A DNA stretch of 60,459 nt from Marmoricola sp. (GTDB lineage: Bacteria > Actinomycetota > Actinomycetes > Propionibacteriales > Nocardioidaceae). Where the stretch lies: NCBI GenBank assembly GCA_045806765.1, contig JBJMIO010000053.1, forward strand, positions 1 to 60,459, given 5' to 3'. Below the pieces are notes generated by a model. The model saw only the letters and a list, made by a program, of their open reading frames with translations, was not told the DNA's origin and searched no databases. The position numbers were made by a program, and so were the translations under genes. Positions 5,132 through 20,326 of the stretch are shown piece by piece; within the stretch, counting starts at the first letter, position 1, and the number at the start of each line of letters is the position of its first letter.

Positions 5132-6172
5132 TCAGGATCCCAGCGCGATCGGCACCCGGCGCACGCTGAGCGTCGAGGTGTACGACGTGCCGTTGGAGGC
5201 CGTCTTGGTCGTCGTGCCGCCGCCGACGACCAGCGTGCCCGAGCGCACCGTCGCCGGGACCTCGAAGCCGAGCAGGCCGTTGGTCGGCGACGGGTCGAGG
5301 TCGCGCGGGGGGTAGTGGCGGCCGGCCTTGTCGACGAAGGTGACCTCGCCGGGAGTCAGGATGAAGGAGCCCTGCCTGCCGGGGAAGGAGTAGTAGGTGT
5401 TGATCACCAGGAACTCCTTGCCCGGGTCCGAGGGCCGCTGGGAGCCGAGGAAGAACCGGGCCTGCGCGTAGTCGACGGTGACCTGCCGGACGAACTGCGA
5501 GGACGTCCCACCGAGCCCGTCGTCGAGCGGGATGCTGGTCTGCTCGGTGATCTGGAAGGTCCGCGCGAGGGTGACCTTCTTGGCGAACGCCGGACGCGCC
5601 AGCAGCTCGATCGTGTCCGAGCCGTGGGTGTGGTCGAGCAGGGAGACCGACTGGGTGAACCCGTCGGCCGAGACGACGAGGTCGACCGCCTCGGTCCCGG
5701 GCGGGACCACCACGACGAAGGTCTTGCCGCCGTCGGGCAGCGCCTGGCTCTCGCCGTCGAGCGAGATGCGCGGCCCGAGGCTCTGCCAGTGCGCGCAGGG
5801 CTGGTCCTCGCAGGTCCAGTCGCCGACGGTGAACGCGATCAGGTTGCTTCCCTCCGGCGCACGCCGGTCGCCCTCCCTGACCGTGACCGAGTCCACCTGC
5901 GAGGCCGCGGTGACCGCGATCCCCGCGCTCTTGAATCCGATCCCCACCGGGTCGTCGAGGACCTTCGGGGAGGCGGCCTTGACCAGCTCCACGTCACCGG
6001 GCACCAGGGTGTCGAAGTGCGAGACCACCACCTCGTGCGAGCGCGGCGGGTTCGTCGAGATGGCGGTACCGATCACCGCGCCCAGCGCGATCGTGGCAGC
6101 AGCGACCGCGCCCCAGACGACGGCCTCGCGCCGCCAGCCATCGAGCTGTGCGAACCACTCCGGCTGCTTCAC
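5132..6172 (-). CDS. Hypothetical membrane-anchored beta-rich exported protein
   Basis: N-terminal TM helix, then two beta-rich regions; the C-terminal one resembles DUF4352-like folds by eye. Confidence 0.7.
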   Translation of the reverse strand: MKQPEWFAQLDGWRREAVVWGAVAAATIALGAVIGTAISTNPPRSHEVVVSHFDTLVPGDVELVKAASPKVLDDPVGIGFKSAGIAVTAASQVDSVTVREGDRRAPEGSNLIAFTVGDWTCEDQPCAHWQSLGPRISLDGESQALPDGGKTFVVVVPPGTEAVDLVVSADGFTQSVSLLDHTHGSDTIELLARPAFAKKVTLARTFQITEQTSIPLDDGLGGTSSQFVRQVTVDYAQARFFLGSQRPSDPGKEFLVINTYYSFPGRQGSFILTPGEVTFVDKAGRHYPPRDLDPSPTNGLLGFEVPATVRSGTLVVGGGTTTKTASNGTSYTSTLSVRRVPIALGS

Positions 6173-6254: not shown

Positions 6255-7115
6255 TCAGCCGAACCGGCCGTGCACGTAGTCCGCCGTGCGGGGGTCGCGC
6301 GGATCGCCGAACATCGCCTCGGTGCTGCCGTGCTCGACGATGACGCCGGGGGCGCCGTTCTCGGCGAGGAAGAAGGCGCACTGCTGGGAGACCCGGGCGG
6401 CCTGCTGCATGTTGTGGGTCACGATCACGATGGTGACGTCGCGCGAGATCTCACCGATGGTCTCCTCCACCACCCGGGTCGAGCTCGGGTCGAGTGCGGA
6501 GCAGGGCTCGTCCATCAGCAGGACCCGCGGCCGCACGGCGAGCGAGCGGGCGATGCACAACCGCTGCTGCTGGCCACCGGACAGGGTCGAGCCGGGTGTC
6601 CGCAGCCGGTCCTTGACCTCGTTCCACAGGCCGGCGCGGACCAGGCTCTCCTCGACCAGGGCCTCCTTCTCGGCCTTCCCGATCCGGATGCCGGTGATGG
6701 TGAGCCCGGCGAGCACGTTCTCCTCGATCGACATCGCCGGGAACGGGTTGGGTTTCTGGAAGACCATCCCGATCTCGCGGCGCGCATCGGTCAGGCGTCG
6801 CTCCGGGTCGTAGATGTCCACCCCGTCCAGGCGCACCTCGCCGGCCAGTGCGGCCGACGGGACCAGCTCGTGCATCCGGTTGAGGATCCGCAGGAAGGTC
6901 GACTTCCCGCAGCCCGAGGGGCCGATCAGGGCGGTCACCCGGCCGGCCTCCATCGAGAGCGAGACCCGGTCGAGCACCTTGCGCTGGCCGAACCACGCCG
7001 AGACCCGGTCAGCCTCGAGCCCGGCCGGTCCGGAGCCGGCCACGTGCGGGTGCAGCGCGGTGTCCGGGTGCGCCTGGACGGCGCCGGGCGGGATGTCGAG
7101 CACTTCGGTGGTCAT
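6255..7115 (-). CDS. pstB: PstB-family ABC ATPase
   Basis: GPSGCGKST, MVFQKPNPFP, LSGGQQQRLCIAR, LLMDEPCSALD, VTHNM and the C-terminal TADYVHGRFG typical of PstB; all motifs intact. Confidence 0.93.
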   Translation of the reverse strand: MTTEVLDIPPGAVQAHPDTALHPHVAGSGPAGLEADRVSAWFGQRKVLDRVSLSMEAGRVTALIGPSGCGKSTFLRILNRMHELVPSAALAGEVRLDGVDIYDPERRLTDARREIGMVFQKPNPFPAMSIEENVLAGLTITGIRIGKAEKEALVEESLVRAGLWNEVKDRLRTPGSTLSGGQQQRLCIARSLAVRPRVLLMDEPCSALDPSSTRVVEETIGEISRDVTIVIVTHNMQQAARVSQQCAFFLAENGAPGVIVEHGSTEAMFGDPRDPRTADYVHGRFG

Positions 7116-7197
7116 GGATCCTCCTGCTGGTCAGCTCAGGGTGATGGTCTGGTCGGGTCTCGGTGGCCTGTCTCGGTGGCCTGTCCAGGCGGCCCGT

Positions 7198-8697
7198 CTA
7201 GGTGGACTTCAGCGTCACCTTGGCCGCAGCGGCGGGCGAGACGAGCGCCGATCCGCCGTACACGGCGTGCAGGACGTGCTTGCCCTTCCTCAGCTTCGGC
7301 AGGACCACCACGACCACGCCCTTGCGGGCCGCGGTCAGGGTGACCCTCTTGATCAGGCGGGTGCCGTCGTAGATCGAGATCACGCCGGTCGGACCGACCA
7401 CGCCGGTGGCGGTCACCTTCACGGTCAGCCGCGCCGCCTTCGTGTGGCTGATCGTCTTCGGCGAGACCGCGTTGACCGCGTGGCCGACGGCTCTGCCGAC
7501 GACGGTGCTGTGCGACACCGAGCTGCTCGTCTCCAGCGAGGACGAGCCGTTGTAGGTCACCACGAACGGCCGGGACCCGGGAGCGAGCTTGGTGCCGGGC
7601 ACCGTGAAGGTCGCCTTGCCTGCTGCGAGCGCCACCGTGGAGATGGTGGTGGTCCCGCTCGCCAGGGTCGCCGTCCCCGTCGCGGTGGTGCCCGCGGGGC
7701 CGGTCACCGTCGCGGTCACCTTGTACGCCGTGCCGTAGGTCGCCTTGGCGGGCACCACCGAGGTGACGCTCGAGCCGACCTTGGTGATCGTGATCGGGCT
7801 GGCGGTCGAGGCGCCTGAGTTGTAGGTGGTGTCACCGCTGTAGGACACCGTCAGGGAGTGGCTGCCGCCGCTCAGGGCAGCACCCGCCACGTGGATGGTC
7901 GCAGCGCCGGAGCTCAGCGGGACGGCCGCACCGATCGCGGTCGCGCCCTCCTTGAGGGTCACCGTGCCGGTCGGGGTCGCGCCGCCACCGGTGAGGGTGA
8001 CGGGGACGTCGAAGCCGGCTCCGTAGGCGGCCGTGGTCGGCACCGTGGCGGTGATGCCGGTGGCGTCGACCTTGCTTCCGAAGACCTGCCAGGTGGTTCC
8101 GGTGACCTGGATGTCGGCGACCGCGTAGTCGTCCGAGGCCGTCTCGCCGCCCGGCTTGGAGGTGCGCAACCGGATCTCGTAGACCCCGGAGTAGCCACTG
8201 GCCGCGTCGGTCTCGGGGTAGGCGGCGATGAAGTCGGAGAGCTTGGTGTCACCGGCGGTCCCCGGGTAGACCGGCAACGTGGCGCTGACCGATCCCGGCG
8301 GGGTCGCGGGGAACGCGACGGCTGCGGTGAGCAGGCCGCCCGACCAGGAGCCGACGTACGAGCCGGAGCTCGGGGTGTAGGCGTAGAGCGCCGCCCTGGT
8401 GTCGCCGGCGCGGATCACACCGGAGGCCTGCACGTAGGCCGCCAGCCCGGAGGCCGAGGTCGTGCTGCCGCCGAAGACCTGCTGGCCGGAGGCGTTGTAG
8501 AAGGACAGCGTGCCGACCGCGTGCGGGTCGGACTTCGCGAAGCCGGTCCCCGTGCCGGTCTGCCACGGGGGCACCGAGGGGTCGGCGGCGCTCGCGCCCT
8601 GGGCGAGGACCAGGCCGGTGGTGGCCGCGGTCGCCAGGACCAGCGCTGCGGCTACGACGCGGATGCGTCGGGGTCGGCCGGTTCTGAAGGTCGTCAC
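7198..8697 (-). CDS. Secreted protein: unnamed N-terminal domain plus three Big_3-like Ig repeats, the last Lys/Arg-rich
   Basis: GTG start at 8697; signal peptide ending GASA-A; repeats of type PTGTVTL...GSHSLTVSYSGD; 499 aa. Confidence 0.8.
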   Translation of the reverse strand: MTTFRTGRPRRIRVVAAALVLATAATTGLVLAQGASAADPSVPPWQTGTGTGFAKSDPHAVGTLSFYNASGQQVFGGSTTSASGLAAYVQASGVIRAGDTRAALYAYTPSSGSYVGSWSGGLLTAAVAFPATPPGSVSATLPVYPGTAGDTKLSDFIAAYPETDAASGYSGVYEIRLRTSKPGGETASDDYAVADIQVTGTTWQVFGSKVDATGITATVPTTAAYGAGFDVPVTLTGGGATPTGTVTLKEGATAIGAAVPLSSGAATIHVAGAALSGGSHSLTVSYSGDTTYNSGASTASPITITKVGSSVTSVVPAKATYGTAYKVTATVTGPAGTTATGTATLASGTTTISTVALAAGKATFTVPGTKLAPGSRPFVVTYNGSSSLETSSSVSHSTVVGRAVGHAVNAVSPKTISHTKAARLTVKVTATGVVGPTGVISIYDGTRLIKRVTLTAARKGVVVVVLPKLRKGKHVLHAVYGGSALVSPAAAAKVTLKST

Positions 8698-8723
8698 GGG
8701 TGTGCCTCTCGTCTGCGTGGAAG

Positions 8724-9380
8724 TCAGTGGCCGGAGCCGGCGGTGGTCTCGTGCGAGGTCGCGCTGCCGTCGGTGCAGCCGGCTGTGCCGGCCGGGCCGA
8801 CGACCTTCCAGCTGCCGCCGTCGACCTTGATCGAGACGCTGTCGTAGGTGGCGCCCTCGCCGGTCTGCGGCGAGGACAGGTAGAGCCGGAGCTGGACGAA
8901 CCCGTCCCACCGCGGCGGGAAGGCGGTCAGGAAGCTCTTCAGCGCGACGTCCTGCCCGGTTGCCTGCGCCATCGGGTGGGCGGTGCTGGTGTAGTCGGAT
9001 GCCGCCGTCAGCAGCTGGCCGCTCCACTCCTGGGAGTCCGTCCCCTGCCGGGGCTGGAAGGCGTAGAGCGTCGCGCTGCGACCGGCGCCGGCGAACGCAC
9101 CCGGTGCGGCGCTCGCGCCGACGGCGCGGACGACGAACGGGGCCGTCGAGGTCGAGCCCGAGGTGACGGGCCTGCCGTCGGCCCCGCACAGCGTGAGCGA
9201 CCCCGTGGAGCTGGCGTCCCGGTAGGGAACGGTGTCCTCGCCTCCGCTCCGCAGCACCCACACGAGGACCACCACGGCCAGCACCAGCACCGCGCCCGCG
9301 CCCAGCAGGACGGTGCGCCGGCGGCCGGTGGGCCGTGCGGCACCCGGCACTGCCCGGGGCTCGGTGATGGTCTGGCTCAT
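8724..9380 (-). CDS. N-terminally membrane-anchored protein with the same unnamed domain
   Basis: ATG at 9380 with a GAGGA RBS; RRR then a TM helix; soluble part aligns by eye with the N-terminal domain of 7198..8697. Confidence 0.8.
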   Translation of the reverse strand: MSQTITEPRAVPGAARPTGRRRTVLLGAGAVLVLAVVVLVWVLRSGGEDTVPYRDASSTGSLTLCGADGRPVTSGSTSTAPFVVRAVGASAAPGAFAGAGRSATLYAFQPRQGTDSQEWSGQLLTAASDYTSTAHPMAQATGQDVALKSFLTAFPPRWDGFVQLRLYLSSPQTGEGATYDSVSIKVDGGSWKVVGPAGTAGCTDGSATSHETTAGSGH

Positions 9381-9438
9381 GGTGTCCTCGCGTGGTCGGG
9401 TGCGGTCAGGAGTGGTCGGGTGCGGCGTACGGGCCGGG

Positions 9439-10629
9439 TCAGCCGCTGGTCGCGCTGCCGCGGTCGTCGTACGCCGGGGTGACACCGGCGTCGCTGAGCA
9501 GCGCCTTGCCGGGGGCCGTGTTCACGAACGGAGCCGGACCGCCGGCGTCGCTGAACAGCGTCTGCGCCCAGTTCAGGGTGCCGCCCGGCTGCCACGGACC
9601 GAGGTCGAGCGCCGAGTCGCGGAAGATGACGAAGTACGGGAACGTGACCGACCAGGCCGACGCGCCGTTCTGGAGCTTCAGACCCGTGGTGCTCAGCGCT
9701 GCGGGCGGGTTGGCCTGCGAGTAGACCTGGTCGGGGTTGCGGAAGTAGCCGCTGCCCAGCAGGTTGAAGCGGCCCAGCGGGAACGGGACGATCGCGTTCG
9801 GCTGGTCAGCGGCCGGGAGGCTCGTGATCGCGGTCGGGTCGTTCTGCTGGACCTGGGTGACGCTGGCCGCGACGGTGACCGTCGTGCCGCCGTTGCCCGC
9901 CTTGAGGCCGTTGAGGAAGATCGTGCGCATGCCCGCACCGGTCTGCGGGATCAGTGCCTTGATGGTCGCCGAGGGCGCCGGGCCGCTGTAGCCCGGGATC
10001 TGGCCCCAGGTGGTGTAGGTGCCGTTGTAGATGTTCGTCAGGTCCGTGGCCGACAGGTTCGAGGGCGCGTTGGTGGTCGTCGCGGTGGCGATGTAGTCGA
10101 CGTCGGTGGCGATCTGCACCGAGTGCAGCGGCGTGCCCAGGCCGCCGCTGGCCACCGACTGCTGGGCCTGCGCCTGCTGGGCGGCGGTCGGCAGGTTGGG
10201 GCTGCGCGCGAAGCTGACCCGGTTGGCCGAGCCGTCGGCCAGCAGGGCCGCCAGGCCGACGCCGCCGCCGTTCGGGCGCTGCACCGGCGAGGTGCCGGCG
10301 CGCAGGATGAAGGTCGGGTTCAGCGCGGTCGAGGTGTGGCCGTCAGCGCTCAGAGCCGGGTCGGTGCCGGACTTGCGGCCGTTGGCGTCACCGCTGGCGT
10401 CGAAGCTGAAGACGCGGTTGCGGTTGCCGGCTGCGTTGTACCCCGGGTTCGAGGTCGAACCGTCGGCGAGGAAGTTGAGGGCGCTCTGCATCACGTCGGA
10501 CCCGACACCCACGACGTCGTCGACGCGGGGTGCGCCGTCAGCGTTGGCGGGGAGCTGGGTGACGAGGAGTCCGCCGGCCAGCGCGGCTGCGATCAACGAG
10601 GCGCCTGCGGCGATCCGCCTGTGCGACAT
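9439..10629 (-). CDS. Secreted PstS-like binding-fold protein with no anchor
   Basis: Signal peptide ending PANA-D; VGVGSD, RPNGGGVG, SFARS, LTNIYNG..TTWGQI, LIPQTGAGMR map onto PstS motifs; no lipobox or C-terminal TM. Confidence 0.75.
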   Translation of the reverse strand: MSHRRIAAGASLIAAALAGGLLVTQLPANADGAPRVDDVVGVGSDVMQSALNFLADGSTSNPGYNAAGNRNRVFSFDASGDANGRKSGTDPALSADGHTSTALNPTFILRAGTSPVQRPNGGGVGLAALLADGSANRVSFARSPNLPTAAQQAQAQQSVASGGLGTPLHSVQIATDVDYIATATTTNAPSNLSATDLTNIYNGTYTTWGQIPGYSGPAPSATIKALIPQTGAGMRTIFLNGLKAGNGGTTVTVAASVTQVQQNDPTAITSLPAADQPNAIVPFPLGRFNLLGSGYFRNPDQVYSQANPPAALSTTGLKLQNGASAWSVTFPYFVIFRDSALDLGPWQPGGTLNWAQTLFSDAGGPAPFVNTAPGKALLSDAGVTPAYDDRGSATSG

Positions 10630-10749
10630 GGGTTCTGCCTTTCGGGTTGCGACTACTGCGTGGTCGGGGAACGGCGCGCGGGCGCGCGGTGGATGCGCAC
10701 CGGCGAGCGACGGCCCGAACCGCCCCATGCCTTGCTCGCACTGTGCACG

Positions 10750-10786
10750 AATCTCACCATTGTTGAGTAAACTTGTCAACTTAATC
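10750..10786 (-). promoter_or_regulatory. AT-rich internal promoter candidate
   Basis: Minus-strand TTGACA (10779-10774) with a weak -10 GAGATT 18 nt downstream, in the 200 bp gap inside the cluster. Confidence 0.5.
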
Positions 10787-10830
10787 GGAATGATCCGAGA
10801 ACGTGTCGTGGCCCACACCGACGGCGTCCC

Positions 10831-11766
10831 TCAGAACAGGTTCGGGAGCATCCGGGAGGCCAGTGAGGACACCGCCCAGAGCGACCCGAGAACCATCGGT
10901 GTCGCCACGATCCACGCCCCCAGCGGTGACCACCGGTGCCGCAGCCAGGCGCCGGCGAGCAGGGTCAGGACCAGCAGCTGGAGCGTCAGCGCGAGGAGGG
11001 CGAGCGTGCCGGAGCCCACGTGGGTGCTCATGGGCCTCTCGGTGGCGACCGTCGTCCCGACCGCTCCGCCCACCACGGCCTTGCCGGTCAGCGTCGCGTC
11101 GACGAACACCGCACGGGACGGGGACAACCGCGAGAACGGGCCCGACCCGACCGCGGTGACCAGGGTGAGACGACCATCGGTCGCCGCCGGGGCGGCCGGC
11201 ACGGGATCGCCCTTCCGGCGAGCCCCCTGGACCGCGTAGGTGAAGGTGCCCTGGGCCGTGGTGACGGTGATCGGGTCCCCGACGCGGAGCCGGTCGAGGT
11301 GGGCGAACGGTCCGCCGAAGGACAGGGCTCGACCCAGCACCAGGCTGGTGCCGTGCTGGCCGGGCAGCACCGAGCCGCGGTAGTGGCCGGGCCCGTGCTG
11401 CAGCTCGCTGGTGCCCGTGCCCTCCACGACGACCAGGCCCTTCACGCCGGCGCGCGGGATCGAGAGCACCGCGACCGGGGCCCCGGTCGCGATCGGCTCG
11501 CCGACCGGCGCGGTGCCGTCGGCCAGCTCGGTCCGGAAGCGCTGGTAGAGCGCGTGCTGGTCGTGGCTGGCCGAGAACCCGCTGAGCAGCGTGAGGTAGG
11601 CCAGCGACCAGCCGCCGAGGAGTGCCACGACGATCAGCACCCGCGACACCGCGAGCCGGACGTCGGCAGACGTACGCCGAGCCGGCGGGCGCTCGGCGGA
11701 CGCCGGCGCCGTGCGCACGACCGTCCGCGGTGGCTGCGGGGGTCGTTCCTCGAGCGTCGCGGTCAT
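10831..11766 (-). CDS. Sortase-fold membrane protein, catalytically degenerate (pseudo-sortase)
   Basis: Class D/E-like scaffold GPGHY.GSVLPG..GT..V.G...FGGPF.HLDRL.VGD.I; GHR is GRA and TLVTC is TLVTA; one N-terminal and two C-terminal TM helices. Confidence 0.85.
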   Translation of the reverse strand: MTATLEERPPQPPRTVVRTAPASAERPPARRTSADVRLAVSRVLIVVALLGGWSLAYLTLLSGFSASHDQHALYQRFRTELADGTAPVGEPIATGAPVAVLSIPRAGVKGLVVVEGTGTSELQHGPGHYRGSVLPGQHGTSLVLGRALSFGGPFAHLDRLRVGDPITVTTAQGTFTYAVQGARRKGDPVPAAPAATDGRLTLVTAVGSGPFSRLSPSRAVFVDATLTGKAVVGGAVGTTVATERPMSTHVGSGTLALLALTLQLLVLTLLAGAWLRHRWSPLGAWIVATPMVLGSLWAVSSLASRMLPNLF

Positions 11767-14495
11767 CGGGCGGCCCTCTTGCCCCGGGCCGTGCGTGCTC
11801 GGCCAGCCGCCTCGACGGCGATCGGCACGAGCACGTTGCTCCACCGCATCAGGAGCCCGGCCAGGCCGAGGGCGAGGGCGCCGAAGAGCACCAGCGGGAG
11901 GCCGAACGAGCCGAGCCGTGAGTGCATCCCGGGGGTCCTGAAGGCCGTCGCGATCGACGGTGTGAGGCTCGCTCCCGGCGGCGTCGCTGCGCTGGGAGTG
12001 GGCCCGTCGACCGAGGTCGGCAGCGATCCGCTGCCGCCGCCACCCGCGGGACTACCCCCGGGCACCGTGGTGCCGGCGTCGTCGGCCGGGTCGAGCGCGG
12101 GCACGAAGCCCTTCTGCGACCGGACTGCCGACGCGGCGCGCGCGGTGTAAGCGGCGAGGTCGCCCAGGCCGTCGGCCTTGGTCAGCGGCAGGTAGCCCGG
12201 CGGCAGCTGGCCGTTGAGCAGCCCCGGGTCCTGGCCGGCCCCGGCGGCGTAGGTGAGGAAGGAGGCCAGGCTCGCGGCGTCGGCCTTGGCCAGGCCCTTG
12301 GTCGGGACGTCGGCGAAGACCGGCATCGTTCCGGGGTAGGCCTTCGCGCCCGCGGTCGAGCGGTAGGCGTCGTAGTCGACCGTCCAGGTCTTCGCGTCCT
12401 TGTCGGCGGTGAGCTGAGCGGCCGCCGCCTTCAGCCCGGCGTCGTCCGGGGCGACGAAGGTCTTCCCGCTCGCCGGGCCGGACTGCAGCGCGGCGGCGTC
12501 GAGATTGTAGCGCGAGATGGTGCTCAGCGGGACGACACCGAGGACGAAGCGCGAACCCGGTTGCTGACGTCCCTGGATCTGGAGCTTGAGCGTGGAGGGG
12601 TCGTTGCGGTCGCCGTTGGGGCACTCGGTGTTCACGTTCGAGATCGCGTACTGCATGTTCAGCACCACGGCCGAGACGAATCCCACGGGGTTGGCGATCA
12701 GGGAGAGGTACGGGCTCGGGCTGCTGGAGTAGCACGGGTTGTTCCCGCCCTGGATGTACTCCTGGCTGGCGTCGTTGGTGTCGTTCAGCGGCCACGAGTA
12801 CGCCGGCAGCGCGATCCCCCTGTAGGCCGGGTTCACGACCATCCCCCACGGGTCGGTGGTGCCGTCGAGGAACTTGCGCGCGTCCGGGTCGGCGTTGAGG
12901 TAGCTGGTCAGCGCGTAGACCATGTCGGTGTCGGAGGACAACGAGAGCAACGTCGCGGCCGCCTCCTTCGCGGTGTACCTCGGCAGGCCCGGGTTCAGTG
13001 CCTGGAACTCCGGGTCCTGGGTGATGTTCACCGGGTTGCCCGCGATCGCAGGGTCCGAGCCCTTGCCGATCGAGTTCGCCGGGTAGGACTGGCTGAGCAG
13101 CTTGGCGAGCAGGCGTGGGTCGAGCCGGAGCTTCGTGTACGGCTGCCCGTCGGTCCCGTCGATGACGTAGCTGATCGCGAAGCCGGTCACCGCGACCGGC
13201 GCCTGCACCGTCGGCGTCTGGTAGGGCAGGTCGGGTGGACGGCTCGAGAACGCGGCATCGATGTTGCCGAGGCCGAGCAGGGTGCGCGCCGAGCTGTCGG
13301 CGGTCTGCACGTGCACGAACGGCGAGAGCGCCTTGTCGGTGCAGAACTTCGGGCGCCACTGCGCGGTCAGCTCGTTGAGCAGCATGGAGCCGTAGATCGC
13401 GGTGGGCTGCTTCTTCGACACCACCGAGCAGACGTTGGCCGAGACGGCGAAGGTGAGCGGCACGGTGATCCGGTTGCGCCAGTTCGAGGCCGACCACCAC
13501 AGCGCGCCCGAGGTGGCGAGGTTCGCCTGCGAGCCGGCCACGGCGACCTGACCCGGGGTGTAGCTGTCTGCGGCCTCGCAGCGCGAGGCAGCCTCGGCCG
13601 CCGTGTCCGCGTCCGGGCGGTCGGACTCGGGCAGCCGGCTCCCGTACGGGTCGCAGCTGATGCCCATGACGGGGACCGCGACCAGGGCGCACGGCACCGT
13701 CGCGCTGCAACCGAGGGTGGCGTTCTCGTCCTCGGTCCAGGCGCTGAACTGAGCACTCCCCTTGCCGTCGGTGCCGGTGATGCCGTACGTCGCGTTGCTG
13801 GGCAGCCCGGAGCTGTTGACGTTCGAGGACTCCGGCGCTTGGCCGGCGCAGCCCAGGTTGCCGCCGGGATAGGTCTTCCCGGACTCCGAGACCATCGGGA
13901 TCCACCGCTCGGCGGCGGCCTTCCGCGTGCAGCCCGAGAGCACCGAGGTCGAGGTCGGGCGGTCGACGTACTGGGCACGGTTGGCCGGCGTCTCGTAGGC
14001 GTCCGAGCGCCACGCCGGCTCGGCAGTGTTGAGGTTGGCGTTGAAGCGCTCCGCCCAGGTCTGGGTCCAGCAGGTCTCCGGGCTGATCCGCTTCGAGGCC
14101 GCAGCGCTCGTGGAGTCGACGCCGCGGCACTCCAGCAGCACGAACGGGTACTCCTCGTTGATGCCGGCCGCCGAGTTCACGTCGGCGGCCAGGCCGCCGG
14201 TGGGGTGGGCACCGCTCCAGGTGACGTCGAGCTCCTGGCGCCCCCGCAGGTTGGTCGTCGCGGAGACCGCCATCTTGATGTTGCGGGTGTCGACGGGGCT
14301 CGTCGACCCGTCGGCGGCGAACTCGGTGCGCTGGACGGTCCTGGTCTTCGCGACCGAGCTCGTCCCCGAGGCGAGCCGGGTCACGGTCGTGGCCCGTGGA
14401 TTCTCCGCCGCGGGAGCCGGTGACTGCATCACGAGGACACCGAGCGCGAGGCACACGACGCCGATCGCCGCGGCGATCCGCGCGACGCGGTTCAC
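11763..14495 (-). CDS. 910 aa exported protein: Cys-rich beta-sandwich region, degenerate PstS-like domain, Gly/Pro/Ser linker, C-terminal TM
   Basis: Signal peptide; 12 Cys in the mature chain; PstS-like segments APVAVTGFAISY, LRLDPRLLAKLL, YPGTMPVFA, FLTYAAGAGQ, GYLPL. Confidence 0.75.
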   Translation of the reverse strand: MNRVARIAAAIGVVCLALGVLVMQSPAPAAENPRATTVTRLASGTSSVAKTRTVQRTEFAADGSTSPVDTRNIKMAVSATTNLRGRQELDVTWSGAHPTGGLAADVNSAAGINEEYPFVLLECRGVDSTSAAASKRISPETCWTQTWAERFNANLNTAEPAWRSDAYETPANRAQYVDRPTSTSVLSGCTRKAAAERWIPMVSESGKTYPGGNLGCAGQAPESSNVNSSGLPSNATYGITGTDGKGSAQFSAWTEDENATLGCSATVPCALVAVPVMGISCDPYGSRLPESDRPDADTAAEAASRCEAADSYTPGQVAVAGSQANLATSGALWWSASNWRNRITVPLTFAVSANVCSVVSKKQPTAIYGSMLLNELTAQWRPKFCTDKALSPFVHVQTADSSARTLLGLGNIDAAFSSRPPDLPYQTPTVQAPVAVTGFAISYVIDGTDGQPYTKLRLDPRLLAKLLSQSYPANSIGKGSDPAIAGNPVNITQDPEFQALNPGLPRYTAKEAAATLLSLSSDTDMVYALTSYLNADPDARKFLDGTTDPWGMVVNPAYRGIALPAYSWPLNDTNDASQEYIQGGNNPCYSSSPSPYLSLIANPVGFVSAVVLNMQYAISNVNTECPNGDRNDPSTLKLQIQGRQQPGSRFVLGVVPLSTISRYNLDAAALQSGPASGKTFVAPDDAGLKAAAAQLTADKDAKTWTVDYDAYRSTAGAKAYPGTMPVFADVPTKGLAKADAASLASFLTYAAGAGQDPGLLNGQLPPGYLPLTKADGLGDLAAYTARAASAVRSQKGFVPALDPADDAGTTVPGGSPAGGGGSGSLPTSVDGPTPSAATPPGASLTPSIATAFRTPGMHSRLGSFGLPLVLFGALALGLAGLLMRWSNVLVPIAVEAAGRARTARGKRAAR

Positions 14496-16123
14496 GACAC
14501 TCCCCCGCGCCGTCGCACGACGAGCCCTCCGATGCCGGCCGGCACCGCGACGACGAGCAGGAGCAGGCCGACCAGGACGATGGTCAGCAGCGAGGACGGA
14601 CCGGAGTCGGCCTCGGCGGCCAAGGTCGTGGGCACGACCGCTCCGGCCTGGGCCGCGTCGCTGCCGTTGCCGGTCGTGGCGCCGAGCCCGAGGCTGGGGT
14701 CACCACCACCGGTGGCGACCGGTGGGGCGGTGCCACCTGCACCGGCACCGGGTCCCGTGCCCGCGTCGTCGCCCGAACCGCCGCCCGCGGCGGCATTGGC
14801 AGCATCCGAGGGATTGCTGCCGTTGTAGGCGCCCTGACCGGCCAGGCACGGGCCCGCACCGATCTTGTCGCACGCAGGCGGCTGCGGCGCGATCTGGGCG
14901 AGGTGGTTCACCTTGGGCTTGCCGGCGATGAACGTCGGGTTGTGGCAGGTGCTGACGTTGCGGTTGGTCAGGTTGACCCCCGGGTCGGCGGTCCTGAGCT
15001 TGGCGATCTGGCTGAAGCCGGCGGTGACCAGGTTGATCGGCAGCGAGGAGTAGCCGATCCGACCGATCTCCGACTGGCCCTGGCAGATCGAGTAGTAGAG
15101 GAAGTCGGCGATGGTCTGCCGCTTCGCCGTGGTCTCTCGCTTCTCGGCCGGCGACGTCCCGGTCGGGATGATCGCGTAGACGTAGGACGACAGCTCGTAG
15201 GTGCGCTTGTCCGGGTTGGTGTAGACGTTGTCGAGGTTCTGGGTCAGGTAGTCCGGTGAGCTCGGGTCGTTGTTGATGATCGCCCGGGTCAGCGCCACCG
15301 CGACGTTGTACTGGGTCGGCAGCGTGTAGTAACCGGCCTTGTTGAGCAGCTTGACCGCCGGGAAGTTCGAGAGCAGCGGGTAGGAGTACTCCTCCATCCC
15401 GATCGAGCCGTTCGCGCCCTTGTTCTTGATGAAGTTCATGACCCCGTCGGAGCCCGACTGCGCCTTCATCGGCCCGGAGTCCTTGCCGCAGTTCAGCGGG
15501 TAGTACTGCGTCTGCCCGGCGGCGCCGTTGCAGGCCCGCCAGATCGAGGGGTACATCTTGTCCATCCAGCGGGTGAACTGGTTGGTGACACCGGCGCCCT
15601 CGGAGTGCACGACCGGGATGATCGGGATCGAGGGCAGCGCGTGCCCGTTGTTGTCCTTGGTGATCGCGGCGTCGTTCCAGTTGGTGATCTGGTTGGTGAA
15701 GATCTTCGCGACCGTCTCACCCGAGAGCCGGATGTTGCGCACCATCTTCCCGGCGACCTCGACGTGGTAGGGCAGCGACGTACCGCCGGCGGCGATCGGG
15801 AGGTAGGCGTAGGGGCGGTCGGGCTTGCTCTCCACCGAGCCGTTGGGCTCCTTCTGGCCGAACGCGACGTCGGAGACGCCGAAGTCGTTGGTGTTGTTGG
15901 CGAAGTCCTTGCGACCCTGCGCGGCGCCGTTCGCAGTGAAGACGACCTGGAGTCCGGGGGCGACGTCGGCGACCCACTGGTTGATGGCGTTGGCGGCCCA
16001 GCTGGACCCGGAGCCGTTGATCAGGACGTGGCTCGACTTCGCCTCGGCGCCCGGCTGGAGGCCCAGCGCGACCAGCACGACCACCGCCGCGAGCACGATC
16101 TTCCTCGACGTACGGACCTTCAT
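14492..16123 (-). CDS. pstS: PstS-family solute-binding protein with C-terminal TM anchor and altered ligand motifs
   Basis: INGSGSSW, DFGVSD, LSGETVAKIFTNQITNWND, GSIGMEEYSY, GYSSLP; not a lipoprotein; Gly-rich linker, TM, RRR tail. Confidence 0.8.
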   Translation of the reverse strand: MKVRTSRKIVLAAVVVLVALGLQPGAEAKSSHVLINGSGSSWAANAINQWVADVAPGLQVVFTANGAAQGRKDFANNTNDFGVSDVAFGQKEPNGSVESKPDRPYAYLPIAAGGTSLPYHVEVAGKMVRNIRLSGETVAKIFTNQITNWNDAAITKDNNGHALPSIPIIPVVHSEGAGVTNQFTRWMDKMYPSIWRACNGAAGQTQYYPLNCGKDSGPMKAQSGSDGVMNFIKNKGANGSIGMEEYSYPLLSNFPAVKLLNKAGYYTLPTQYNVAVALTRAIINNDPSSPDYLTQNLDNVYTNPDKRTYELSSYVYAIIPTGTSPAEKRETTAKRQTIADFLYYSICQGQSEIGRIGYSSLPINLVTAGFSQIAKLRTADPGVNLTNRNVSTCHNPTFIAGKPKVNHLAQIAPQPPACDKIGAGPCLAGQGAYNGSNPSDAANAAAGGGSGDDAGTGPGAGAGGTAPPVATGGGDPSLGLGATTGNGSDAAQAGAVVPTTLAAEADSGPSSLLTIVLVGLLLLVVAVPAGIGGLVVRRRGGVS

Positions 16124-17229
16124 CAGGACTTCCTTCCACGGGCGACCAGGCGGGCGAGCAGGAACAGCGCGAGCACGATCGTGAGCAGCACGACCGCGGC
16201 GGCGTACCCGCGCACCTCGAACCGGGGCTCGCCCGAGCTCACGGCGGTGTAGATGTAGAGGGGCAGGGAGTTCATCGGGTTGTGGAACGGGTCCCAGTTC
16301 ACGTACGTCGAGGCGCCCGAGGTGAGCAGCACCGGGGAGGTCTCGCCGACCATCCGGGCGATGCCGAGGATCAGCGCGGTCGCCAGGCCGGGACGCGCGG
16401 TCGGCAGGACGACGCGCCAGATGGTCTCGAACCTGCCGGCGCCCAGCGCGTACGACGCCTCCCGCAGGCCGCCGGGCACCACGCGCAGGACGACGTCGCT
16501 GGCCCGGGCCATGATCGGCAACCCCATCACCGCCAGCGCCAGCGCGGCCGCGAAGCCGCTCTGCTGGAAGCCCGCGTTGACGATCAGGACGGTGTAGATG
16601 AACAGTCCGGCCACGATCGAGGGCAGCGCCGTCATGGCCTCCACCACCGTGCGCACCACACGCGCGCCGCGGCCCCCGATCTCCGCCATGTAGATCGCGG
16701 TGACGACACCGAGCGGCAACGCGATCGCGACCGCGATGGCGACCTCGATCAGCGTGCCGACGATCGCGGCGAGCGCCCCACCCGAGGTGTAGGCGTCGCT
16801 CGGGCGGACACCGGCCATGTCGTGGGTGAAGAAGTTCGCGTGCGCCAGTGCGGACATGCCCTTGCCGACGGTGACCACGACCGTGCTCGCCAGCGCCAGG
16901 GCGACGACGCTCGGAGCAGCGACGACCAGCGAGGTCATGAACCGGTCGACGACCACGACCCAGGGGCGGTAGATCGCGGTGATCCCGCAGTAGAAGAGCA
17001 GGAAGGCGACGTACCAGCAGACGAAGAAGCCGAGCGCGCCCGAGAACGGGAGGACCTGCTCGTAGAGGATCCAGGTGGTCGCCAACGCCCCGCCGACCGC
17101 GCCGAGGAGGGTCAGGTCGTCCTCGTTGGTGCGCGGCCGGGTACGGCGCAGCACCTCGGCGGGTGGTTCCTCGAGGGGAGCGTGCAGCTCCTCCAGCGGT
17201 TCCTCGAGGGGTTCGAGCACGGCGGTCAT
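16123..17229 (-). CDS. pstA: PstA-family ABC permease
   Basis: AIVGTL, ALPSIVAGLF, LREASYALGA (EAA loop), ARMVGETSP. Confidence 0.92.
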   Translation of the reverse strand: MTAVLEPLEEPLEELHAPLEEPPAEVLRRTRPRTNEDDLTLLGAVGGALATTWILYEQVLPFSGALGFFVCWYVAFLLFYCGITAIYRPWVVVVDRFMTSLVVAAPSVVALALASTVVVTVGKGMSALAHANFFTHDMAGVRPSDAYTSGGALAAIVGTLIEVAIAVAIALPLGVVTAIYMAEIGGRGARVVRTVVEAMTALPSIVAGLFIYTVLIVNAGFQQSGFAAALALAVMGLPIMARASDVVLRVVPGGLREASYALGAGRFETIWRVVLPTARPGLATALILGIARMVGETSPVLLTSGASTYVNWDPFHNPMNSLPLYIYTAVSSGEPRFEVRGYAAAVVLLTIVLALFLLARLVARGRKS

Positions 17230-17282
17230 TCGGGGTCCCCGTTCGCAGCGGAGCGAAGCGAGCACTCGGGTGGGGTGATCAC
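17226..17282 (-). repeat. MIRU-like intercistronic element encoding an 18 aa coupling mini-ORF
   Basis: GTG overlaps the pstC TGA (GTGA); VITPPECSLRSAANGDPE ends in TGA overlapping the pstA ATG (ATGA); net 53 bp; GGAGCGAAGCG on the + strand. Confidence 0.65.
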
Positions 17283-18304
17283 AGCTCGGTCCCCGCTCCG
17301 CTGCGGCCGCGGGCGACGATCGTCGCGGCAAGCGTGTTGACCAGCAGGGTCATCAGGAACAGCACGAAGCCCGCGGTGAGCAGGGCCGCGAGCTGGGAGG
17401 GCGAGGCCTCCTTGTACTGGCTGGCGATCAGGGCCGAGATCGTCGAGGTACCGGACTCGAGGATGTTGATCTTGATCTTGAAGGCCTGGGAGATGATCAG
17501 GAGCACCGAGATCGTCTCGCCCAGCGCACGGCCCAGAGCCAGCATGGTGCCGCCGATGATGCCGCTGCGGCCGAACGGGATCACGACCGTGCGGACCACC
17601 GACCAGCGGGTGGCGCCGAGCGCGAGCGCGGCCTCCTTCTCCCCGGCCGGCGCCTCGGAGAACACCTCGCGCATCACCGAGGTGGCCATCGGGAAGATCA
17701 TCATCGCCACCGCGATGGCCGCGATGAAGACCGAGCCCTCGTACGACGGGTAGCCCGGCGCCTGGTTCCAGATCGGGTAGTGCACGTCGGTGTGCACCTT
17801 GAAGAGCGGGATCCAGCCGAAGTAGGTGCTGATCCAGTGCGCGACGTGGGTGGCGTGCGGCTGGATGAAGAGCAGCACCCAGAGGCCGAAGACGATGCCG
17901 GGAACCGCTGCCATCAGGTCGATCAACCGGACCAGCACGGGCCGCAGGCGCGGCGGTGCCCAGTCGGTGATGAACAGCGCCGAGAGCAAGGAGAGCGGGA
18001 ACGCGATCGCCAGCGCGACGGCCGCGACCTCGACCGTGCCGACGAGCACCGAGGCGATCCCGATGACGTCCTGGCTCGGCAGCCACCGGTGCTCGGTGAA
18101 GAACGACCAGCCGTAGGCCTGGAACGTGGGCCTTGCCTGGAGGCCGAGGAAGATGCCGATCGAGGACACGATGCCGAGCACCAGCAGGCCCGTGCCGCGC
18201 ACGGACTGGGTGAACACGACGTCCTGGGTGGAGTGCCGCGCGGCGATCCGCCGGGGGGCGTCCTCGAGGTCGTCCACCTCTCGCAGCGTCGTCGCGGGTG
18301 ACAT
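17279..18304 (-). CDS. pstC: PstC-family ABC permease
   Basis: GWSFFT..W.P, DLMAAVPGIVFGLW, KEAALALGATRW (EAA loop), LGRALGETI. Confidence 0.92.
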   Translation of the reverse strand: MSPATTLREVDDLEDAPRRIAARHSTQDVVFTQSVRGTGLLVLGIVSSIGIFLGLQARPTFQAYGWSFFTEHRWLPSQDVIGIASVLVGTVEVAAVALAIAFPLSLLSALFITDWAPPRLRPVLVRLIDLMAAVPGIVFGLWVLLFIQPHATHVAHWISTYFGWIPLFKVHTDVHYPIWNQAPGYPSYEGSVFIAAIAVAMMIFPMATSVMREVFSEAPAGEKEAALALGATRWSVVRTVVIPFGRSGIIGGTMLALGRALGETISVLLIISQAFKIKINILESGTSTISALIASQYKEASPSQLAALLTAGFVLFLMTLLVNTLAATIVARGRSGAGTEL

Positions 18305-18380
18305 GCAGGGTCCTTGTGGTCAGCGCACCCCGCGTCGGTCACCGCAGGGTGCAGGAAGGACCAGCCCGAACTCGTCCGGG

Positions 18381-18430
18381 CTTAAACTATACACAAACGA
18401 TTGAGTTTGTTTTTTTGATGAACTTAATTT
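18381..18430 (-). promoter_or_regulatory. AT-rich promoter/operator region of the pst-like cluster
   Basis: -10 TATAGT (18391-18386), inverted repeat ACAAAC-N6-GTTTGT (18393-18410), a T tract, and ATTAAGTTCA. Confidence 0.55.
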
Positions 18431-18538
18431 GCTCGAGAGACGTGCGTCACGCCAGGTCGAGCGGGCCCGTTCCGCCATCCGAGTGCGGCCTTCCTGCCGA
18501 AAGAGTGGGGTCCTTCTCCCGGGTTCGGCTCCGAGCAC

Positions 18539-18562
18539 AACCTTTTGGGGTGCTCGCGCGTC
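18539..18562 (+). promoter_or_regulatory. ECF-type promoter, probably autoregulatory
   Basis: AACC-N16-CGTC directly upstream of the SigE-family gene. Confidence 0.5.
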
Positions 18563-18593
18563 CTCGGTTCGACGGAAGAGGATGGAGACCTCC

Positions 18594-19118
18594 ATGAACC
18601 CAGCACTGCATCCGGGAAGGCAGGTCGGAGCCGTGGGACCTGCCGAGGACGACGGTGGCTTCGAGGCCTTCGTGCGCGCCCGGCTCCAGCACCTGCTGCG
18701 GTTCGGGTACGTGCTGACCGGCAGCGAGCACGCCGCAGCCGACCTGGTGCAGGACGCCCTGGAGCGCAGCCTGCTGCGCTGGTCGCGGATCACCAGCGAC
18801 GACCCGGAGGGCTACGTGCGGCGCACCATGGTCAACCGGAGCATCTCGGTGTGGCGCAAGCTCGGTCGCGAGCGGGTCACCGACGAGGTCCCGGTCGGGA
18901 CGTACCGCGATCCCGAGCGCGACGAGGCGCTCCTCGCCGCCCTGCGCCGGCTGCCGGCGCGCCAGCGTGCCGTGATCGCGCTGCGCTACTACGAGGACCT
19001 CACCGAGGCACGGACCGCGCAGGTCCTCGGGTGCTCGATCGGCACCGTGAAGAGCCAGTCGAGCCTGGCGATGACCCGGCTGCGCACCCTTCTCGAGACC
19101 ACCCAGGAGGAGTCGTGA
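18594..19118 (+). CDS. SigE-family ECF sigma factor
   Basis: FEAFVRAR...AADLVQDAL..RW...YVRRTMVN...LPARQRAVIALRYYEDL...GTVKSQ; GGAG RBS before ATG 18594. Confidence 0.93.
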   Translation: MNPALHPGRQVGAVGPAEDDGGFEAFVRARLQHLLRFGYVLTGSEHAAADLVQDALERSLLRWSRITSDDPEGYVRRTMVNRSISVWRKLGRERVTDEVPVGTYRDPERDEALLAALRRLPARQRAVIALRYYEDLTEARTAQVLGCSIGTVKSQSSLAMTRLRTLLETTQEES

Positions 19119-20326
19119 ACGACTTCGAGGACCGGCTGCGCGCCGGGTTGCGCACCGCGCCGGCGACCAGGGAGACCGACCAGGTGCTCGCGGAGGTGAA
19201 GCGGGGCGCCGTACGGCGTCACCGCAGGCGGGCCGCCGCGCTGGCCGCGGCGACCGCTGTCGTCGTCGCCGGCGCGATCGCCTCGACCGTGGCCCTCACC
19301 GGTGGCAGGCAGGCGTCCCAAGGCCCGGACCCCGCGCCCGAACCGACCCTGCCGGCCCTACCGCGCGATGCCGCACGGGGCGTCATCGACGTCTCCGCAG
19401 CCGCGCCTGGCGCGGTGTACCGGCTGACGACCAACGTCGGCTGCGTCGCGTGCTCCACGGTCTGGCGGGAGACCAGGTCGGCGGGCGGCTGGCAGCGGCT
19501 GCACGACTTCGGCGCCGAGGCGTACGGCGGACGGCCCGACCCCATGTTCGGGCCGGTCGAGCGCGTCGTCATGGACCCCGACGGCGACGGCTGGGCCTGG
19601 GGACGCCTCCTGCTCGCCACCCACGACGGCGGCCGGACCTGGGACCGGGTCACGACCGGCCCGGGTCGCACCGTCTCGGACCGCGGCTACGAGGTCGTGC
19701 TGACCTCCCGCTACGCCTGGGCGCTGGACCGCTCGGACTCCGGGACCCGGCTGTGGCGCAGCGAGCTCGCCACGCAGGCGTGGACGCGCGTGGCCGCACC
19801 CGGTCTGAGCGGGGTCACGGGGATCACGACGACGGGTGACCAGGTCGTCCTCGAGACCTCCGACGAGGGGCTGGCGAACCCGCGGGTCGAGCGCAGCACG
19901 GACGGAACGAGCTGGACCAGCACCGCGGACCCGTGCTCGGGAGAACCGGACGTCCAGCCGGCCGGGTCCTCGCTCTTCCTGCTGTGCCCTAGCGGTGCCG
20001 CCACCGAGGCGACGCCCTCGAGGAGCGCGGCGGTCCGCGAGCTCACCGCCGGCACCTGGAGCCTCGCCGGGCAGTCGCACGGAGTGGTCACCGCAGTGAA
20101 GGGGATCGGGGACCGCCGGCTCCTGGTGGTGCACGAGGGCGGCCGCGCGAGCCTCTTCACCGCAGGCACCAGTACCGAGGTCGACCTGGGGTTGGAGCCC
20201 GGCGAGGAGATCGGCAGCGCGAGCTGGAACGGCGAGGACGTGCTCGTCTGCGTCTTCGGCGACCACGGGACCAACCGGCTGATCCGGTCCTCGGACGGCG
20301 GACGTGCGTGGTCGCCCTCGCCCTAG
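19115..20326 (+). CDS. Putative anti-sigma membrane protein with an exported BNR/beta-propeller-like domain
   Basis: GTGA overlap with the sigma stop; EDRLRAGL...RRHRRR then TM; THDGGRTW, STDGTSW, SSDGGRAW Asp-box repeats. Confidence 0.7.
   Translation: MNDFEDRLRAGLRTAPATRETDQVLAEVKRGAVRRHRRRAAALAAATAVVVAGAIASTVALTGGRQASQGPDPAPEPTLPALPRDAARGVIDVSAAAPGAVYRLTTNVGCVACSTVWRETRSAGGWQRLHDFGAEAYGGRPDPMFGPVERVVMDPDGDGWAWGRLLLATHDGGRTWDRVTTGPGRTVSDRGYEVVLTSRYAWALDRSDSGTRLWRSELATQAWTRVAAPGLSGVTGITTTGDQVVLETSDEGLANPRVERSTDGTSWTSTADPCSGEPDVQPAGSSLFLLCPSGAATEATPSRSAAVRELTAGTWSLAGQSHGVVTAVKGIGDRRLLVVHEGGRASLFTAGTSTEVDLGLEPGEEIGSASWNGEDVLVCVFGDHGTNRLIRSSDGGRAWSPSP

What the first reader, a model, noticed from the sequence alone, without database searches (positions are those of the whole stretch)
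6255..18304. Pst-like ABC transporter wrapped around a pseudo-sortase and surface proteins: candidate undescribed cell-surface system
Seen: nine co-oriented genes, in transcription order pstC, pstA, TM-anchored pstS, 910 aa PstS-fusion, dead sortase, secreted PstS-like protein, domain-X membrane protein, domain-X plus Ig protein, pstB. The first five are chained by stop/start overlaps, and pstB is 9 kb from its permeases, so the surface genes sit inside the transporter unit. No phoU and no clear PHO box. Established: canonical pstSCAB(-phoU) is compact with a lipoprotein PstS in Gram-positives. Inference: an intact ATPase/permease core has been repurposed, either to import a ligand other than orthophosphate or to energise or sense assembly of an extracellular complex of PstS-fold and Ig-fold subunits.
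Basis: partly seen in the sequence, partly recalled or inferred. Interest (0 to 1): 0.9.

Follow-up and report, generated by a model that had tools for sequence, protein, structure and literature searches.

The report
Retuned phosphate importer with surface module
This is a real nine-gene cluster, conserved in many actinobacteria, that joins a phosphate-type importer to a catalytically dead sortase and several exported proteins; this copy has lost the phosphate-gripping residues of its binding proteins and its phosphate-starvation operator while keeping the pump, so it likely imports a different anion through a predicted surface relay that my literature searches did not find described.

Summary
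Observation confirmed, with small corrections. The nine genes belong to a family found in several Actinomycetota classes. The core pstC-pstA-pstS-910 aa protein-pseudo-sortase is present in 40 of 40 full-length loci. Carriers keep a separate pst system (this genome; 11 of 11 others tested). The scan reported the family twice before on other DNA.

New here:
(1) The family is ancestrally a phosphate-starvation module: intact pockets, and PHO boxes in about half the clusters.
(2) The window's clade has remodelled the pockets of PstS and of the secreted PstS-like protein, changed a channel serine, and shows no PHO box (0 of 12). ATPase motifs and channel arginines are intact.
(3) A second, separate clade shows the same set of changes.
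(4) 12 of 13 genomes with the window-type copy also hold a second, less altered family copy.
(5) Many relatives add WxL and WxLIP genes, recently shown in Enterococcus to build donor-strand pili; the window lacks both.

Best reading (0.40): a Pho-independent paralogue importing another oxyanion. Rivals: low-affinity phosphate uptake, or a ligand-free surface scaffold. Binding between subunits is untested.

The parts
17279..18304 (-). pstC-like permease (341 aa). Keeps GRALGET (E. coli R237/E241). The 'PS' serine (equivalent to E. coli S124) is Gly136.
   Evidence: TIGR02138 237 bits; alignment to 9k3x_B
16123..17229 (-). pstA-like permease (368 aa). Keeps the R220/E224 and S133 equivalents.
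   Evidence: TIGR00974 221 bits
14492..16123 (-). PstS (543 aa): signal peptide without lipobox, four-cysteine extension, C-terminal TM anchor. Pocket reads S-A-D-H-E-A-V at E. coli T10, S38, D56, R135, D137, S139, T141.
11763..14495 (-). 910 aa protein: Cys-rich N-terminal beta domain, complete PstS fold with a degenerate pocket (pseudo-receptor), C-terminal TM anchor.
   Evidence: AF2 pLDDT 94.1; Z 31.5, rmsd 2.8, 318 aligned to 7dm1_B; Foldseek
10831..11766 (-). Pseudo-sortase (311 aa), class E-like fold. Catalytic His is Arg146, Cys is Ala205. N- and C-terminal hydrophobic helices.
   Evidence: PF04203; alignment to 5go5/5go6; family columns
9439..10629 (-). Secreted PstS-like protein S2 (396 aa), no anchor. 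All four pocket hydroxyl positions are changed (V46, G122, A232, M234).
   Evidence: PF12849; PDB profile hits 1twy, 4q8r and DING proteins
8724..9380 (-). X1: domain X (beta-sandwich, no named family) with an N-terminal membrane anchor.
7198..8697 (-). X2: signal peptide, domain X and three Ig-like domains; no WxL domain.
6255..7115 (-). pstB-like ABC ATPase with intact Walker A/B, Q-loop, LSGGQ, D-loop and H-switch.
18386..18395 (-). Extended -10-like promoter element (TGTGTATAGT) in an AT-rich stretch (25% GC); identical in L011, L016 and L017; no PHO box.
   Evidence: function inferred
10751..10779 (-). Internal promoter-like site before S2 (TTGACA, 17 nt, TGAGAT); the TTAAGTTGAC part recurs in L011, L012, L016 and L017.
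   Evidence: the simple sigma-70 scan did not call it; function inferred

Best explanation
The cluster encodes an ABC importer with intact ATPase and channel motifs whose two binding proteins have lost their phosphate-gripping residues and whose promoters carry no PHO box, so it likely imports an oxyanion other than trace orthophosphate, through a predicted surface relay. Shown: the family descends from a phosphate-type importer distinct from canonical Pst; most members keep phosphate pockets and many have PHO boxes; the window's clade changed the PstS pocket, the S2 pocket and a channel serine together. Inferred mechanism for the family: S2, made from its own promoter, captures the anion away from the membrane. 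X/Ig stalks (tethered in many relatives through a WxL domain and a membrane-bound WxLIP chaperone) hold it in the wall. The 910 aa pseudo-receptor and the pseudo-sortase act as non-covalent membrane docking subunits. TM-anchored PstS delivers the anion to PstCAB. Inferred for this copy: after duplication freed it from phosphate scavenging, it was retuned to a protonated anion with fewer hydrogen-bond acceptors or an apolar group. Asp56 and both channel arginines are kept; phosphite-, methylphosphonate- or bicarbonate-like ligands are candidates, none tested.
For: PstB motifs invariant or nearly so in 62 of 62 rows; PstC R237/E241 in 67 of 67; PstA R220 in 69 of 70 (residues from PMC12976172 section 9). 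PstS pocket SADHEAV in the window and 7 relatives, against S/T-S-D-R-D-S-T in 11 of 11 canonical PstS (residue list from PMC10846223 section 7). S2 keeps all four hydroxyls in 44 of 56 complete rows; 9 of the 12 exceptions are the window clade, and 3 further clade members are also degenerate. PstC serine changed in 7 of 9 clade rows plus 3 of 3 more, against Ser in 84 of 85 other rows. The single exception belongs to a separate clade (PstS TSERDAA) whose S2 has also lost pocket hydroxyls and which shows no PHO box before the cluster genes in 2 of 2 loci. PHO box in 0 of 12 window-type clusters against 12 of 24 and 17 of 37 in the two pocket-rich classes. 12 of 13 window-type genomes hold a second family PstS that keeps S38 and S139; 10 of 10 single-copy Nocardioidaceae genomes have the intact TSERDST pocket. 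All nine frames are open with dN below dS. The R135/D137 pair switches as a pair (H/E in most of the clade, R/D in three nested members), so the cleft is still constrained.
Against: No ligand, transport, expression or binding data. About half of the pocket-intact clusters also show no PHO box, and each clade is one evolutionary event, so the absence rests on two events, not twelve. A phosphorus-source importer would be expected to stay under PhoP, which argues against phosphite or phosphonate. S2's T141-to-Met change could block any anion. The role of the PstC serine is inferred from pseudo-symmetry with PstA S133; the sections I read do not name it. L019 and L022 keep that serine. No catabolic enzyme gene was seen in the flanks I listed. 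The second copy in this genome has His at PstA R220, so it is not fully canonical either.
Confidence: 0.4

Rival explanations
1. Low-affinity, constitutive phosphate importer or sensor: same ligand, but binding proteins and channel are weakened so that it works when phosphate is plentiful, complementing the PHO-induced paralogue and canonical Pst.
For: Asp56, the T10-equivalent Ser and both channel arginines are kept. Loss of the PHO box and housekeeping-like promoters fit phosphate-replete expression. A single T10-to-S change goes with about 10-fold lower affinity in Synechococcus PstS (PMC10846223 section 7).
Against: Three hydroxyls and the arginine of an eight-residue site are changed to apolar or shorter residues, far more than known affinity tuning. 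The genome already has a Pit-like gene beside canonical pst (Pit identity recognised from the sequence, not scanned).
Confidence: 0.26
2. Ligand-free structural or signalling machine: the PstS-fold proteins are now pseudo-receptors that build an adhesive or matrix coat with the X/Ig proteins, and the ABC core reports or drives assembly through its conformational cycle.
For: The 910 aa protein is a pocket-degenerate PstS fold throughout the family, and the sortase is dead in 75 of 75 rows, so structural reuse already occurred twice. S2 lost all four hydroxyls. WxL/WxLIP homologues in relatives are pilus parts in Enterococcus. PstS and DING proteins form appendages in Pseudomonas (PMC2242829, PMC3949141; search listing only).
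Against: The channel phosphate site arginines and glutamates are retained and the channel serine changes together with the pockets, which suits a passing ligand. The window lacks WxL and WxLIP. Domain X matches no pilin fold.
Confidence: 0.22
3. Relaxed selection after duplication: a redundant copy slowly losing binding and regulation, with no new function.
For: Window-type copies nearly always sit beside another copy. They lack WxL and WxLIP in all but L019.
Against: No broken frame in the complete window-type clusters read. dN is below dS in all nine genes (dS is compressed by GC3 bias). The same substituted residues are fixed across genera, and the pattern arose in two clades.
Confidence: 0.08
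4. It is simply the organism's ordinary high-affinity Pst system with unrelated surface genes inserted.
For: PstC and PstA pass the NCBIfam equivalog cut-offs.
Against: A canonical lipoprotein pstSCAB with a perfect PHO box lies on contig C190. Family and canonical permeases split with SH-aLRT 100 (long-branch warning given). The surface genes are linked in 40 of 40 full loci.
Confidence: 0.02

Closest known systems
Canonical PstSCAB high-affinity phosphate importer (E. coli 9k3s/9k3x; actinobacterial lipoprotein type)
   Same: PstC/PstA/PstB orthologous folds and motifs, channel Arg/Glu pairs, PstS fold; PHO boxes and intact pockets in many family members.
   Different: Separate clade. PstS is C-terminally TM-anchored (83 of 83) with a four-Cys extension. 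Two extra PstS-fold proteins, a pseudo-sortase and X/Ig proteins. In this copy the pockets, a channel serine and the PHO box are changed or lost.
WxL/WxLIP (Csc, Elr) chaperone-guided pilus of Bacillota (bioRxiv 10.64898/2026.10.17.759780)
   Same: Relatives' clusters carry C-terminal WxL domains (PF13731 in 20 of 35) and TM-anchored WxLIP-like proteins (PF06030 in 28 of 36; PDB 9i25 E 8e-13).
   Different: The preprint reports the system confined to Bacillota and does not mention phosphate or PstS in its main text. The actinobacterial WxL proteins seen here are large X-Ig-WxL proteins; I saw no small major pilin. The sortase is dead. The window itself has neither WxL nor WxLIP.
Class E sortases (PDB 5go5/5go6)
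   Same: Sortase fold sequence match over about 100 residues, E 7e-14; GxGH motif invariant.
   Different: No catalytic Cys in 75 of 75; His replaced by Arg/Lys in 71 of 75; extra C-terminal TM region; neighbouring PstS and 910 aa proteins lack LPxTG (2 of 83 each).
DING proteins and PstS appendages of Pseudomonas
   Same: Secreted PstS-fold protein linked to phosphate limitation; S2 profile hits DING structures (2v3q, 3w9v).
   Different: Gram-negative setting; an eight-residue phosphate site is conserved in DING (PMC7922408 passages) but lost in this S2.
Isd haem relay of Staphylococcus aureus (recalled, not looked up)
   Same: Logic: a sortase gene and wall-displayed binding proteins inside an ABC importer locus, relaying ligand across the wall.
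   Different: Isd uses an active SrtB, covalent anchoring and NEAT domains; no sequence relation was tested.

Membership tests
Canonical PstSCAB | PstB ATPase motifs intact | tested here: met
   (62 of 62 rows)
Canonical PstSCAB | Channel phosphate site PstA R220, PstC R237/E241 | tested here: met
   residues
Canonical PstSCAB | PstS eight-residue phosphate pocket (T10, F11, S38, D56, R135, S139, G140, T141) | tested here: not met
   S38A, R135H, S139A, T141V in the window
Canonical PstSCAB | Lipoprotein PstS in monoderms | tested here: not met
   no lipobox; C-terminal TM
Canonical PstSCAB | PHO box upstream | tested here: not met
   best scores 3.0, -1.8 and 2.3 against threshold 11.2; canonical copy 29.4 (the canonical sites trained the matrix)
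Canonical PstSCAB | Phosphate transport and induction by starvation | not testable with these tools
   needs experiment
Active sortase (class E) | His-Cys-Arg triad | tested here: not met
   Cys 0 of 75, His 4 of 75, Arg 11 of 75
Active sortase (class E) | LPxTG/LAxTG substrates in the locus | tested here: not met
   none in the nine window proteins; 2 of 83 PstS, 2 of 83 910 aa, 4 of 36 X1 orthologues
WxL/WxLIP pilus (Elr/Csc) | WxL protein and WxLIP chaperone within 10 kb (the window's cluster) | tested here: not met
WxL/WxLIP pilus (Elr/Csc) | WxL protein and WxLIP chaperone within 10 kb (relatives' clusters) | tested here: inconclusive
   homology shown at E up to 0.1; gathering thresholds and the PF11797 domain, which the preprint requires, were not shown (PF11797 not among matches)
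WxL/WxLIP pilus (Elr/Csc) | Major pilin with free N-terminal donor strand | tested here: inconclusive
   a loose motif occurs in 78 of 116 X-domain N-termini, the strict Elr consensus in 7 of 116; AF2 uses this strand as X's own first strand
WxL/WxLIP pilus (Elr/Csc) | Fibre formation | not testable with these tools
   needs EM

The most novel reading that the evidence does not exclude
Actinobacteria have a wall-spanning nutrient-capture organelle: a chaperone-tethered WxL/X/Ig stalk or fibre carrying secreted binding proteins and plugged, through a dead sortase and a pseudo-receptor, directly into its own ABC importer. The organelle has been retuned at least twice, by the same pocket, channel and promoter changes, from phosphate to a new oxyanion. 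It would also extend donor-strand WxL assembly beyond Bacillota.
Probability: 0.25. Interest if true: 0.92.

Novelty: new variant of a known kind. Interest (0 to 1): 0.74.

Why it matters
Actinobacteria dominate many phosphorus-poor soils and waters. A second, patchily spread Pst-type system with its own surface apparatus (12 of 401 phylum genomes, 18 of 151 Nocardioidaceae) is annotated simply as 'pstSCAB' and would be miscounted as ordinary phosphate uptake. The same remodelling in two clades gives a short, testable list of residues for how an oxyanion importer changes specificity. The conserved dead sortase suggests a non-catalytic role for that fold. The WxL/WxLIP homologues challenge the recent statement that this pilus pathway is confined to Bacillota. 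Two cultured Nocardioides strains carry both the PHO-type and the remodelled cluster side by side, so the test is easy to set up.

Tried and rejected
Expression: no RNA holder was listed for 9400-18600, which says nothing either way.
Rfam: no match at gathering threshold in 1-30000.
Sigma-70 scan: 0 promoters and 3 terminator-like sites against 2.8 expected.
Domain X: no Foldseek match at E 0.001 or better; best VIA Z 5.5; Atlas hits only unnamed actinobacterial clusters. Its fold class is a beta-sandwich, family unassigned.
N-terminal half of the 910 aa protein: not folded alone; Atlas TM 0.36-0.38 to neocarzinostatin-family clusters is a weak lead. Its profile found no real PDB sequence match.
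First tree paired the wrong pstC with pstA for L014 and L018, and one search gave those loci PHO boxes that belong to an adjacent second cluster; corrected.
In one search the L018_2 score used the wrong head gene; its box (19.1) is, so class I is 13 of 24 after correction.
Regex pocket calls for S2 had errors; I use alignment columns.
G511 repeats G402 and is counted once.
The 346 aa gene downstream of pstB, the divergent ECF sigma and lhr were rejected as core parts: seen only near Marmoricola-like loci.
A conserved sorting signal before the TM anchors was not found.
Literature: searches listed no paper whose title or abstract start describes the cluster; passages of a Streptomyces phosphate-transport review (PMC7866108) do not mention sortase. 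Subscription papers and the preprint's supplements were not seen.
Full report
Observation. The nine genes are present on the minus strand in the order given. Family matches fit pstC, pstA, pstS, sortase, a second PBP, Ig domains and pstB. X1 and X2 share a 155 aa domain. Three of the four claimed overlaps are real. pstC and the likely pstA start (17229) are 49 nt apart, whereas relatives overlap directly. A promoter-like site precedes S2, so two transcription units are likely. The closest named relatives are Marmoricola MAGs at 66-67% identity in the 910 aa protein.

The genome has other Pst systems. Contig C190 carries a compact pstSCAB with a lipobox PstS, the only PstB over the TIGR00972 cut-off and a perfect PHO box. 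phoU is on C40. Overlapping contigs C28 and C32 hold a second copy of the surface-type cluster, with WxL-like and WxLIP-like genes and a PHO box before its S2. An orphan family-type pstB lies on C31.

The family. The 910 aa protein gave 191 confirmed stretches in GTDB, of which the best 80 were kept as 79 loci. In the 40 loci of at least 21 kb: pstC, pstA, pstS and the sortase occur in 40, pstB 37, S2 34, X1 31, X2 27, WxLIP-like 26, WxL-like 21. An even phylum sample found it in 12 of 401 genomes, a lower bound since two candidates per genome were scored. All 11 other carriers have a separate, higher-scoring pstC; 10 of those loci gave a PstS with a canonical pocket, and in one (L112) no PstS was found in the 6 kb taken. 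A PstC+PstA tree separates 82 family rows from 12 canonical rows with SH-aLRT 100. It is a quick LG+G4 tree with a long-branch warning; L112 and L113 were left out.

Anatomy. PstB motifs are invariant or nearly so in 62 of 62 rows, PstC R237/E241 in 67 of 67 and PstA R220 in 69 of 70. These are the channel residues named in PMC12976172 (sections 8 and 9 read). The sortase has no Cys at the catalytic column in 75 of 75 rows, and Arg or Lys for His in 71. PstS has a C-terminal TM segment in 83 of 83 and an LPxTG-like motif in 2; S2 has no C-terminal TM in 67 (hydropathy only). The 910 aa protein folds confidently (pLDDT 94.1, pTM 0.91). Its C-terminal half is a full PstS fold (Z 31.5, rmsd 2.8, 318 aligned) with a pocket that is degenerate across the family. 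Domain X is a beta-sandwich without a clear known relative. It also heads 27 X-plus-WxL proteins in relatives.

Ancestral state: phosphate. Taking the eight-residue site from PMC10846223 (section 7), basal members in several classes keep S/T-S-D/E-R-D-S-T/S, and their S2 keeps the GSDT, NGSG and GSGT motifs where my patterns found them. A matrix built from 11 canonical pstS promoters (threshold 11.2, the 99th percentile of 400 random windows; the GTTCA 11-nt repeat is recalled and agrees with the PMC2275107 listing) finds boxes in 12 of 24 R/D-type clusters (13 after correcting one head gene) and 17 of 37 H/E-type clusters. The surface module therefore belongs, in many genomes, to a PhoP-type regulon.

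This copy is derived. The window falls in a clade (9 rows, support 100; three more nested members; L012 belongs by pocket and gene order) with the order C-A-S-910-srt-S2-X1-X2-B in the complete clusters, except L019, which also has WxL and WxLIP. PstS reads SADHEAV, with intermediates SSDHEAT (L019) and SSDHEAV (L022) and a nested SADRDAV form. S2 has lost its four pocket hydroxyl positions in 12 of 12 seen, whereas 44 of 56 complete S2 rows keep all four. The PstC serine that mirrors PstA S133 (my inference from pseudo-symmetry) is Gly or Ala in 10 of 12, against Ser in 84 of 85 other rows. No PHO box is found in 0 of 12 head regions, that is in none. Housekeeping-like promoter elements are conserved instead in the Marmoricola-like members. 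A separate clade (TSERDAA; L088_1, L170, L171) shows the same set: PstS hydroxyl loss, PstC Ser to Ala, degenerate S2, and no box before the cluster genes and no WxL or WxLIP in 2 of 2 loci read. A third clade (D38/Q135) also shows no box, 0 of 8, but its S2 heads were mostly out of view. Window-type copies co-occur with a second family PstS that keeps S38 and S139 in 12 of 13 genomes; the exception is a MAG of unstated completeness. Single-copy Nocardioidaceae genomes have the intact pocket in 10 of 10. dN is below dS for all nine genes (dS is compressed by GC bias).

Against over-reading. Half of the pocket-intact clusters lack a detectable box. The clades are single events. This genome's second copy has His at PstA R220. 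No binding, expression or complex was shown.

Mechanism. Shown: a working-looking ABC pump, three PstS folds (one anchored, one anchored pseudo-receptor, one secreted), a dead sortase, X/Ig proteins, and joint change of pockets, channel serine and operator. Inferred: a capture-and-relay path from secreted S2 on X/Ig stalks to membrane-anchored PstS and PstCAB, with the pseudo-sortase and 910 aa protein as docking subunits. Joint change in binding protein and channel, repeated in two clades with the arginines kept, fits a changed ligand (0.40) somewhat better than weak phosphate uptake (0.26), a ligand-free scaffold or sensor (0.22) or decay (0.08).

Comparison. Relatives' WxL domains match PF13731 in 20 of 35 and their chaperone-like proteins PF06030 in 28 of 36, both at E up to 0.1, and E. 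faecium WxLIP structures at E 8e-13. A 2026 preprint (10.64898/2026.10.17.759780; abstract, passages and sections 8, 12 and 52 read; supplements not seen) shows that WxL/WxLIP operons build donor-strand pili. It calls them confined to Bacillota, with a small Actinomycetota chaperone satellite, and its main text has no occurrence of phosphate or PstS. The window lacks both genes, and I saw no small major pilin in relatives, so a tethered stalk is more likely than a pilus. PMC5817068 and PMC7922408 (passages) and PMC7866108 (passages) do not describe the cluster in what I read. Five searches listed no paper on it. Two earlier scan reports describe the same family on other genomes; I re-tested their core claims.

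Verdict. Real, conserved and apparently undescribed in print. It works like a Pst importer with a surface relay. It is not a canonical Pst, not an active sortase system and, in this copy, not a WxL pilus. Interest 0.74.

Noticed in passing
G000 contigs C28:1-14190 and C32:4246-6880 (L008, L009): Second copy of the cluster in the same genome, with WxL-like, WxLIP-like and three proteins sharing a different N-terminal domain; PHO box before S2; PstA has His in place of R220, as does the related L172.
   Followed up: partly
G000:C31:6270-7133 (L002): Orphan family-type pstB (74% to the window's) between a glyoxalase-like gene and a transglycosylase-like gene; closest to the Aeromicrobium/Nocardioides PHO-type clusters, possibly a remnant. 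Neighbour names are from sequence appearance.
   Followed up: no
window 17230-17282: About 50 nt insertion between pstC and pstA holding an 18-codon frame whose start overlaps the pstC stop and whose stop overlaps the pstA start, which would preserve translational coupling.
   Followed up: partly
window 5132-6172 (-): 346 aa membrane-anchored protein of no Pfam family directly after pstB; paralogue on C48; homologues near the cluster in L011, L013 and L016 only.
   Followed up: partly
window 18429-20326 (+): ECF sigma factor and an anti-sigma-like membrane protein divergent from pstC; a similar pair lies downstream of pstB in L013.
   Followed up: partly
L015, L024, L026, L030, L057, L058, L063, L071: Clade with swapped PstS pocket (Asp at S38, Ser or Ala at D56, Gln at R135) and Glu at PstA S133; many other H/E-type members have Asp there. 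A third pocket chemistry.
   Followed up: partly
L014:6143-22351 and L018:6041-22133: Cultured Nocardioides strains carry a window-type cluster directly followed by a PHO-box, intact-pocket cluster.
   Followed up: yes
L056, L059: Two or three tandem WxL proteins in one cluster.
   Followed up: no
L069:19413-20354 and L081:19351-20253 (-): Small WxL-like proteins with a His-rich linker and a C-terminal anchor (MPFTG motif in L081) on the opposite strand; possible base or terminator subunits.
   Followed up: no
L033, L040: Frameshifted pstS (L033) and pstB, pstA, pstS (L040); may be long-read assembly errors or decay.
   Followed up: no
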